Source: Felis catus
Taxonomy: Eukaryota
Assembly: GCF_018350175.1 (NCBI RefSeq)
Contig: NC_058379.1
Span: 22,196,001-22,260,000 of the forward strand
Direction: 5' to 3'
Length of the DNA: 64,000 bases
Below, in pieces: positions 60,772 through 62,479 of the stretch; within the stretch, counting starts at the first letter, position 1, and each line of letters opens with the position of its first letter. The notes below the pieces were generated by a model. It worked only from the letters and a program-made list of their open reading frames with translations. It searched no databases and was not told the origin of the DNA. The position numbers and the translations under genes are program-made.

Positions 60772-60777
60772 TTTATT
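60772..60777 (-). terminator. Poly(A) signal AATAAA of the C5orf52-like gene
   Basis: TTTATT on the plus strand, about 95 nt downstream of the distal in-frame stop (60875-60873). Confidence 0.65.
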
Positions 60778-60872
60778 ATGGTTCTGTGATGGTGTAGGCT
60801 GGCTAGTTTCTAAGTCTCCTCCTCCTGTAGTCTAGTGTCATCATGGTTCAGGGGCAGATTATTCTGCTTTGA

Positions 60873-61070
60873 CTAGGGTGGCTGGCTTTTCCTGTGAGGA
60901 TGGAGGTTGAACTGGACCTTGCATACTTGGATGCTTCCCAGGTACTGCTGGATGTTCATGGATTCCCGTCTCTAGCACCCCAGCTTTCTGAGCTGGTCGG
61001 TCATGAACTTTTTCTTCAGATGGTCATACAAGTGGCTCGTCTTTCTCTTGGTCTTGTCTGAAGCTCTTAT
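60873..61070 (-). CDS. C5orf52: Terminal exon of a C5orf52-like gene (mouse 4921536K21Rik-type locus) with an in-frame TAG at 60974-60972; truncated gene or pseudogene
   Basis: Branch point CTAAC (61096-61092), pyrimidine tract and CAG acceptor (61073-61071). Translation [64 protein letters not shown] resembles the C5orf52 C-terminus as I recall it (..[33 protein letters not shown]..). Upstream exons were not found, so they presumably lie beyond 64000. Confidence 0.82.
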
Positions 61071-62479
61071 CTGACAAAAAACAGAGGCGACGTTAGGATG
61101 AAGAGGCTACTTCACAGAAAGAGAAATGCTCATGCTGCTGATATGGGGGTGGAAAATGTGCCAGATGGACCCAATATTCCATAAATATATTGACTCATAG
61201 GGAACCTCAGTTTCCCTATTTGTAAAATGTGGGCATCGAGCTAGATTACCCCTAGAGTACCTCCAACAGTCTGCAGCCCAGGGGCCTGATTTTGACCTCA
61301 ACATCTCTATTTGAAAACTGGTCAGAAAGAGGTGCGGGTGGGGAGGGTGGAGGAAAAGACCATCTTGTTCCTCCTCCTCCTCAAATCCTATCATCCCGTC
61401 CCTATGATTCATTCAGTGCTTACCACATATTGTCTGCGACATCCTCTGTATCACACTGAACTCTACTTATTTCATCTATCATATCATTTCTGTCCTGTCC
61501 CCAACAAGACTAGAAGCTCTGGGAAGGGACATTCTCTATCTTATTCACTCATGTACTTATTCCAATGAGCTAGCTGTGAGGAGGATACTAACAAAAATCA
61601 ACCACAGGTCTTCATAACAACTACAACATAGTCAGGAAGGTGGGGCACATGCCCAAATATTTCTAAGTGAGGCACAGGGTGCCATATCCCTAAAAGTACA
61701 GAGTTCAAAGAAGGGAGATATCAAGAAAAGCCTCCTGTAAGAGTGACACATAAATTGGGGCTGGGTTTTGAAGGATGGGGAAGTGTTGGGCGTGTGAAAT
61801 AAGAATCAGGTGGGAGGTGATCTTGGGGTTGACATTTTCACAAACTCTCCCAGGGACTCTAAAAATGGATGCTGTCTCAAAACCCAGCACAATATAAGCA
61901 AAGGAAAACTCCATAAAGGCCAGTCAGTGTTGCCATGATTATGTGACAAAGGGAGTTAAAGAACCTAAGTGGATCTTGGGAACAAGGGATAAAGAGGGAG
62001 GGTGGGTGATTTCTCTCTGTGTGCTCAGATTATTCCCAAGACACAAGGCCTTTGCTGTTCTTGTCAAGGTCCTGAGAAATCAGTGGCTAGTCAAAGCTGC
62101 CTCTTTGCCTAATGTGCCTCTTTTCCTTTCTGTGGGGAGACAGAAAGACTGCCATGCTGGGCCCTTAGCAAGTCACCAGGTCTACAAATAAGGAGAAGAT
62201 AGTCCTTGTCCTTAAGGGAAGATGTCCCATACCGTGGTCAGTCAGACCCAGGTTTGCAATTCTACAATGATGCACTGTATGATCTTAATGAATTTACTCC
62301 ATCTCTCTGAGCCTCAATTTCCTGAACTAGTAAGTAGGTTAATAATACATAATGGACACTGAGTATCTAAAACACATAAGGGCTCGATATAGCTTTAAAA
62401 GGAGAACTTCTGGATGGCTGGAGGGTGCTTGGCACAGCCCTCTGGTACATATAAAGCACCTCAGGAGAGTCTCCAGTTA

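What the first reader, a model, noticed from the sequence alone, without database searches (positions are those of the whole stretch)
60772..61096. Hidden last exon of a C5orf52-like gene with an amber codon at a conserved Trp
Seen: absent from the ORF track, yet it has a CTAAC branch point, pyrimidine tract, CAG acceptor, 32 codons, TAG (60974-60972), 32 more open codons, a second TAG and AATAAA. Recalled homologues read ..QLRKLGRWREES..; here it is ..QLRKLGC*RRES.., consistent with CGC>TGC (CpG decay) plus TGG>TAG. Similarity continues past the stop with no frameshift, which suggests a recent change. A stop in the last exon should escape NMD and give a protein about 33 aa shorter. Alternatives: lineage-specific truncation or gene loss, a segregating null allele, an assembly error, or (low prior) A-to-I editing of UAG to UIG restoring Trp. 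I see only short local stems, so editing is unsupported.
Basis: partly seen in the sequence, partly recalled or inferred. Interest (0 to 1): 0.7.

Follow-up and report, generated by a model that had tools for sequence, protein, structure and literature searches.

The report
Recurrent Trp stop in cat C5orf52
The domestic-cat copy of C5orf52, a little-studied gene reported in germ and ciliated cells, carries a real stop codon in place of its most conserved tryptophan, protein records of Canada lynx and Old World monkeys end at the same spot, and the likely cause is tolerated gene decay rather than RNA editing.

Summary
Observation confirmed base by base. The exon is the last coding exon of C5orf52 (Pfam DUF5528, E 6e-23), beside OSBP2. 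It is not hidden: the RefSeq cat protein XP_006938655.4 matches it and already ends at this stop. It is not an assembly error: an RNA-library contig spans the TAG unchanged, and 6 runs not flagged as source hold all sampled words.

New here: of 220 family records with the motif, 207 have Trp and 13 end exactly there (cat, Canada lynx, 12 Old World monkey species); 12 of 14 felid species keep Trp. The Trp is among the family's two most conserved residues and lies inside one predicted 75-residue helix. Lynx models imply two further frameshifts, so decay; Old World monkeys keep the upstream frame intact, so the short protein may still work there. TGG is the exon's richest stop-gain target, so chance explains part of the recurrence.

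Editing has no support (no duplex; one unedited contig), but testis RNA was not tested. Best reading: a nonsense allele tolerated under relaxed selection.

The parts
61092..61096 (-). CTAAC branch-point consensus (A at 61093)
   Evidence: sequence; use not shown
61071..61091 (-). pyrimidine tract and CAG acceptor of the last coding exon
   Evidence: sequence; homology to felid proteins starts here
60975..61070 (-). 32 codons of C5orf52/DUF5528 before the stop; the C-terminus of RefSeq cat protein XP_006938655.4
   Evidence: (E 4.4e-16 alone)
60972..60974 (-). amber codon at the family's conserved Trp (W158 in tiger numbering)
   Evidence: spanned without change by contig X19
60876..60971 (-). 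32 open codons after the stop, homologous to the tail of other felids; now likely 3' UTR
   Evidence: one difference from tiger, Gly for Asp, also seen in cheetah, puma and jaguarundi
60873..60875 (-). ancestral stop codon (TAG); full-length felid proteins end at the codon before it
60772..60777 (-). AATAAA poly(A) signal
   Evidence: sequence; cleavage site not shown
60912..60929 (-). two internal donor sites (junctions after 60927 and 60918), 45 and 54 nt after the amber codon, implied by X2 isoform models of snow leopard and jaguar, and of cheetah
   Evidence: use in this animal not shown
59536..59562 (-). alternative terminal exon (8 codons and a stop) behind a TTTTCCAG acceptor, matching the ends of the X2 isoform models
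   Evidence: MIR-like origin is recalled, not tested
44416..45096 (-). first coding exon of the downstream neighbour, an OSBP2-type PH-domain gene (synteny marker, not part of C5orf52)
   Evidence: Pfam PH; a polar-bear model that fuses both genes aligns to 61073-60939 and 45135-44419; the name OSBP2 is recalled

Best explanation
This is the last coding exon of the cat C5orf52 (DUF5528) gene with a genomic stop at the family's conserved tryptophan, which would give a protein 33 residues short, likely weakened or inactive and likely tolerated because selection on the gene has relaxed in cats. Shown: the stop in DNA and in one RNA-library contig, family membership, Trp in 12 other felid species, and the same end point in lynx and Old World monkey records. 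Inferred: a single G>A transition in a TGG codon after the split from Prionailurus; escape from nonsense-mediated decay when the 60777 poly(A) signal is used; loss of W158, E161, Y168, L169 and the last 24 residues of a predicted helix (107-181) that probably docks on a partner in germ or ciliated cells. The repeat of the same codon in other lineages is read as mutational target size plus the way gene models are kept, not as recoding.
For: Residue matters: W158 is invariant in 72 of 72 aligned therian proteins and present in 29 of 29 more distant hits that I picked from 89, one of them (P0264) forced by a gap. Relaxation: lynx models imply two further frameshifts (P0096, P0151 read another frame at the N-terminus and end 17 codons before the Trp; RefSeq P0077 is flagged LOW QUALITY). 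Felids share S108P and show 5 of 15 within-clade variants at conserved columns, against 0 of 7 in pinnipeds, 0 of 5 in mustelids and 2 of 12 in ruminants. Mouse homozygous knockouts were phenotyped in IMPC, so the gene is not needed for life (PMC5773596 supplement rows). The Trp codon holds 14-28% of the exon's weighted stop-gain routes.
Against: Twelve Old World monkey species keep an open 137-143 codon frame up to the same stop; a rough neutral model with rates and tree lengths assumed from my own knowledge expects 2.4-5.7 breaks (P of none 0.003-0.09). So a protein cut here can apparently stay under selection. Three independent events on one codon have probability 0.005-0.03 under the same weights, two events 0.06-0.15. 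Delphinids show as many variants at conserved columns (5 of 9), so the felid excess is not unique and the counts are small. The cat model has no second lesion, though only 0.2-0.3 would be expected. No dN/dS could be computed, since no other species' DNA was available.
Confidence: 0.55

Rival explanations
1. The shortened protein is still functional: the part up to the codon before the Trp does the essential job, the Trp-bearing end is a removable module, and cats, lynx and Old World monkeys lost it at the first tolerated cut point, possibly with some benefit.
For: 13 of 220 records end at exactly this codon and none of the 207 Trp-bearing records has a tail under 12 residues. Old World monkeys keep the frame open with only 2 conservative changes at conserved columns among 11 records. 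[quoted passage not shown]
Against: The Trp is one of the two best conserved residues of the family. Lynx went on to decay. African colobines carry 6 changes in the core. Species whose gene broke earlier in the frame would be missing from protein collections, which biases both counts; 18 of 138 hits were not listed.
Confidence: 0.25
2. Origin question (not exclusive of the others): cat and lynx share one old stop allele through incomplete lineage sorting or introgression, instead of two separate mutations.
For: Same codon in both. Felid genomes show widespread discordance and ancient admixture (PMC4691742, passages). The cat shares Gly170 with cheetah, puma and jaguarundi but not with Prionailurus, which hints at a local tree unlike the species tree.
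Against: [quoted passage not shown] Cat and lynx share no other derived residue in the core. The lynx copy is broken upstream, so it is free to gain stops.
Confidence: 0.3
3. A-to-I editing (UAG to UIG) or read-through restores Trp in germ cells, so the gene is intact at the protein level.
For: The stop replaces a Trp, the tail is open and 31 of 32 residues match tiger. The same codon recurs in other lineages. A mammalian precedent exists in the NARF Alu exon (PMC1852406, passages). Both RNA records that cover 60868 read G for A on the gene strand, 104 nt after the stop, which is either a SNP or editing.
Against: No structure: fold z -0.14 for 60772-61170; the best duplex of a 41-nt probe with 9 kb of pre-mRNA was matched by 24 of 100 shuffles, and the longest ungapped helix through the A is 13 bp; none of the 25 longest of 123 inverted pairs touches the exon. 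The one contig over the site is unedited (depth 2.3, tissue unknown, contigs drop rare variants). The base after the stop is A, not a read-through context (recalled). A few million years of open tail is expected without selection.
Confidence: 0.04
4. The stop is a segregating allele in domestic cats rather than a fixed species difference (not exclusive of the best reading).
For: The run search ranks best holders first, so cats with TGG would not be listed. A nearby site, 60868, differs between records.
Against: Every source seen has the stop: window, RefSeq/UniRef protein, X19 (labelled as another organism), and the all-words runs of 7 studies. No cat record with Trp appeared among 241 proteins, though 3 of 18 members of the felid cluster were never listed.
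Confidence: 0.2
5. Assembly or sequencing error.
For: None beyond the prior.
Against: as above.
Confidence: 0.01

Closest known systems
C5orf52 / mouse 4921536K21Rik, Pfam DUF5528 (PF17666); cat RefSeq XP_006938655.4
   Same: Same gene and exon; the cat record has the same 32 residues and the same end.
   Different: 207 of 220 records continue through Trp with a tail of 12 or more residues (median 33). The human gene is on chromosome 5, and the mouse gene's syntenic place holds no annotated human gene (PMC6842137 section 6), so the simian copy likely sits at another locus than this one.
Old World monkey C5orf52 (e.g. Papio anubis XP_003900490.3, Macaca mulatta XP_014996811.3)
   Same: End at the residue before the same Trp.
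   Different: Independent origin, shared by colobines and cercopithecines; Arg, not Cys, before the stop; codon type not seen; one drill model has Trp.
Lynx canadensis XP_032451339.1 and Lynx pardinus VFV22086.1
   Same: The Canada lynx model ends at the same codon.
   Different: Two further frameshifts are implied by the models; lynx DNA was not seen.
Editing-corrected stops: human NARF Alu exon (PMC1852406) and fungal stop-correction genes (PMC7306014, listing only)
   Same: UAG at a place where UGG gives Trp.
   Different: NARF relies on a sense/antisense Alu duplex 25 bp away; here no duplex covers the codon and the one RNA contig is unedited.

Membership tests
DUF5528 / C5orf52 | Pfam PF17666 match above the curated cut-off | tested here: met
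   81.9 bits against 28.9, E 6.2e-23
DUF5528 / C5orf52 | Orthology by sequence and synteny with the carnivore locus | tested here: met
   91-95% identity to felid proteins; a bear model joining C5orf52 to the PH-domain neighbour maps to both places
DUF5528 / C5orf52 | Conserved Phe147...Trp158 helix motif complete | tested here: not met
   Trp codon is TAG; the gene is a truncated member
DUF5528 / C5orf52 | Upstream exons 1 and 2 present and spliced to 61070 | tested here: inconclusive
   Outside the window; present in the RefSeq model; no spliced cat peptide among 15 hits and no joint
Editing-corrected premature stop (NARF type) | Long double-stranded RNA covering the adenosine | tested here: not met
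   only 55000-64000 was searched
Editing-corrected premature stop (NARF type) | A>G mismatch at the stop in RNA | tested here: inconclusive
   1 of 4 laid runs covers the site, unedited, depth 2.3, tissue unknown
NMD-escaping last-exon nonsense allele | Stop less than 50-55 nt before the last junction or in the last exon (rule recalled) | tested here: inconclusive
   Last exon if the 60777 signal is used; 45 and 54 nt to the donors of the alternative isoform; mRNA level not measured
Unitary pseudogene | Several disabling lesions or dN/dS near 1 | tested here: inconclusive
   Cat model shows one lesion; lynx models imply three; no DNA for dN/dS
Unitary pseudogene | No functional protein made | not testable with these tools
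   needs proteomics or an assay

The most novel reading that the evidence does not exclude
The invariant Trp of C5orf52 is a recoding site: cats and Old World monkeys independently turned it into a stop that germ cells read as Trp by A-to-I editing or read-through, giving a short and a long form under tissue control. Testis RNA was not examined, so this is not excluded.
Probability: 0.03. Interest if true: 0.85.

Novelty: new variant of a known kind. Interest (0 to 1): 0.35.

Why it matters
The truncation itself is already in the databases and is an ordinary kind of event. What adds value is the comparison: three mammalian groups end this protein at the same deeply conserved Trp, one decaying (lynx), one apparently maintained (Old World monkeys) and one recent (cat). 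That gives natural alleles for asking what DUF5528, a family of unknown function reported in germ and ciliated cells, does, and it warns that macaque and cat are poor stand-ins for the human protein. I found no paper on it in searches of the held library (search 53 was swamped by an unrelated term and only 20 of 131 papers were listed); supplements of gene-loss screens, which I did not see, may list it.

Tried and rejected
No whole genome is held for this window, so exons 1-2 and paralogues could not be read. tblastn of six proteins finds no upstream exon inside the window. Of 4 runs laid, X24 gave no read, X21 one sense-strand read at about 60802-60951 that misses the stop, and X16 two intronic pieces. 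A search for short transcript-derived peptides gave 15 hits; of the three I read, one is a spliced rodent-type peptide and two read exon 2 into its intron, and none of the other 12 covers over 60% of the query. Editing structure tests were negative; the amber probe was the best of 26 exon probes (-40.0 against mean -35.4, sd 3.1), but the shuffle control removed this (24 of 100). Solved-structure search: best E 0.55. Foldseek: nothing at E 0.001. VIA-align: only generic long helices, Z up to 7.0. ESM Atlas: FAM228 (0.86, on 48% of members) and CFAP77 (0.80) are below 0.9 and are leads only. The idea that Arg>Cys and Trp>stop were one recent event was rejected.

Full report
Observation. With X at the stop the 65 codons match Pfam DUF5528 at E 6.2e-23, and the tiger orthologue aligns through the stop without a gap. 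The neighbour at 45096-44416 is a PH-domain gene (OSBP2 by recall), and a polar-bear model that joins both genes maps to both places. Exons 1 and 2 lie beyond the window.

Not hidden, not an error. The RefSeq protein of Felis catus, XP_006938655.4, has the same 32 residues, including a Thr where the 13 other felid species have Met, and ends at this stop. I therefore take the window to be domestic cat or a very close relative. Of 4 runs laid, one covers the codon: a 235-nt contig from an RNA library, 60792-61026, wholly inside the exon, with no change at 60973. A single read in a single-cell run lies in the exon's 3' part in sense orientation. These hint at transcription but do not show splicing. 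The search favours holders, so it cannot tell a fixed from a common allele.

The comparison across mammals. Three protein searches and three cluster look-ups gave 241 records at the time of the count. Of these 220 carry the Phe...Gln-Leu motif: 207 continue with Trp, and 13 end exactly before it; 21 did not match (exon-1 or exon-2 fragments, other splice or frameshifted models, unrelated cluster members) and were left out. The 13 are cat, Canada lynx and 11 records covering 12 Old World monkey species, both colobines and cercopithecines. Three further monkey models skip five codons over the site, and one drill model has Trp. Apes and New World monkeys have Trp. Among felids, 12 of 14 species have Trp, including three Prionailurus and cheetah, puma and jaguarundi; 3 of the 18 members of that cluster were never listed. 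The Cys before the site is in all 14 felids, not in hyaenas, and recurs in otariids and walrus, with His in dolphins, as expected from CpG decay (inferred from proteins only). It is older than the stop.

What is lost. W158 is invariant in a 72-sequence therian alignment. A profile search found 89 relatives; in the 29 more distant ones I picked, all 23 of a scanned subset being DUF5528 (22 of them among the 29), Phe147 and Trp158 are the only columns kept in all 29, one by a forced gap. AlphaFold2 gives low confidence to residues 1-100 and one helix from 107 to 181 with block pLDDT 92-99 over 111-170 (pTM 0.33). The stop removes the last 24 residues of that helix. No solved relative exists by sequence or fold. 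The literature offers little: conserved expression in ciliated and/or male germ cells in human, lemur and mouse (PMC12328211 and its preprint, one passage each), testis-highest expression of the mouse gene (PMC6842137, section 6), and phenotyped homozygous mouse knockouts with two male metabolic outliers (PMC5773596, supplement rows; 9 supplement files not searched; fertility not seen). A helix that docks on a cytoskeletal or other partner through Phe147 and Trp158 is my inference.

Decay or a working short form. Lynx points to decay: Iberian lynx and an Ensembl-type Canada lynx model read another frame at the N-terminus and end 17 codons before the Trp, and the RefSeq model that reaches the Trp site is flagged LOW QUALITY, which implies two frameshifts besides the stop. 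No lynx DNA was seen. Felids share S108P and have 5 of 15 within-clade variants at conserved columns, against 0 of 7, 0 of 5, 1 of 3 and 2 of 12 in pinnipeds, mustelids, canids and ruminants; delphinids have 5 of 9, so this is weak. Old World monkeys point the other way: 137-143 open codons, 2 conservative changes at conserved columns, and a rough neutral expectation of 2.4-5.7 breaks (rates and tree lengths are my assumptions; species that lost the gene would be absent). The simian gene likely lies at another locus (human chromosome 5; no annotated human gene at the mouse's syntenic place), so that stop is independent. With transitions weighted four-fold, the Trp codon holds 14-28% of stop-gain routes in the exon; two events share a codon with P 0.06-0.15, three with P 0.005-0.03. 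If cat and lynx share one old allele, only two events are needed. The nuclear tree puts lynx outside Puma + (leopard cat + domestic cat), but felid genomes are rich in discordance (PMC4691742, passages), and the cat shares Gly170 with the Puma lineage, not with Prionailurus.

Editing. The region folds no better than shuffles (z -0.14; exon -59.7 against -61.1). The best duplex of the codon's surroundings with 9 kb of pre-mRNA is matched by 24 of 100 shuffles, and the longest ungapped helix through the A is 13 bp. The inverted SINE pairs nearby have arms at 58.2-58.6 kb and 63.3-63.5 kb and do not include the exon. The mammalian precedent, NARF, depends on an adjacent Alu duplex (PMC1852406, passages). 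The one contig over the site is unedited. An oddity remains: both RNA records covering 60868 read G for A on the gene strand; a SNP is the simpler reading, and it was not resolved.

NMD. With the 60777 signal the stop is in the last exon. Models in snow leopard, jaguar and cheetah splice from inside this exon to a short exon present at 59562-59536; the junctions would be 45 and 54 nt after the cat's stop, under or at the 50-55 nt limit (recalled).

Verdict. A real, already annotated nonsense change in a known gene, most likely a tolerated loss or weakening under relaxed selection (0.55), with a working short form as the main rival (0.25) and recoding unlikely (0.04). The recurrence at one invariant Trp in three groups is the part worth keeping; I found it in none of the paper searches nor in the scan's earlier notes. 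New variant of a known kind; interest 0.35.

Noticed in passing
window 60868: Both RNA records covering this 3' UTR base (one read in X21, one contig in X19) read G for A on the gene strand, while 14 runs hold all reference words. SNP or editing site.
   Followed up: partly
P0107, P0118, P0119, P0170-P0176, P0178: Records of 12 Old World monkey species end at the same Trp position; a drill model (P0146) has Trp, a possible reversion or error.
   Followed up: partly
P0077, P0096, P0151: Lynx models imply an N-terminal frameshift and a last-exon frameshift shared by Canada and Iberian lynx: C5orf52 is probably a pseudogene in Lynx.
   Followed up: partly
window 60938-60936: Codon GGA (Gly170): Gly is shared with cheetah, puma and jaguarundi, while Prionailurus, Leopardus and Panthera have Asp, which is two base changes away from GGA; possible local gene-tree discordance.
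   Followed up: no
P0076: Geoffroy's cat protein has four changes in the core, three at conserved columns including a one-residue deletion.
   Followed up: partly
P0156, P0213, P0092: The gene is named for human chromosome 5 but sits on cattle 17, dog 26 and beside the OSBP2-type gene in carnivores; the simian copy seems to have moved.
   Followed up: partly
P0009, P0199: Database models fuse C5orf52 with DUSP18 (puma) and with the OSBP2-type neighbour (polar bear); likely annotation artefacts, useful as synteny markers.
   Followed up: partly
P0069, P0070, P0071: Meerkat has two divergent DUF5528 models, one looking like a decayed second copy, the other with a frameshifted tail.
   Followed up: no
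window 59668-59663 and 59562-59536 (-): A second AATAAA lies about 100 nt before the alternative terminal exon.
   Followed up: no
P0302, P0305, P0307, P0314-P0316, P0318, P0325: DUF5528 extends to divergent 270-450 aa proteins with the domain at the N-terminus and the Phe/Trp pair kept; taxa not given by the library.
   Followed up: partly
window 61221-61071: A 151-nt piece of run X16 ends exactly at the last intron base; probably chance.
   Followed up: no
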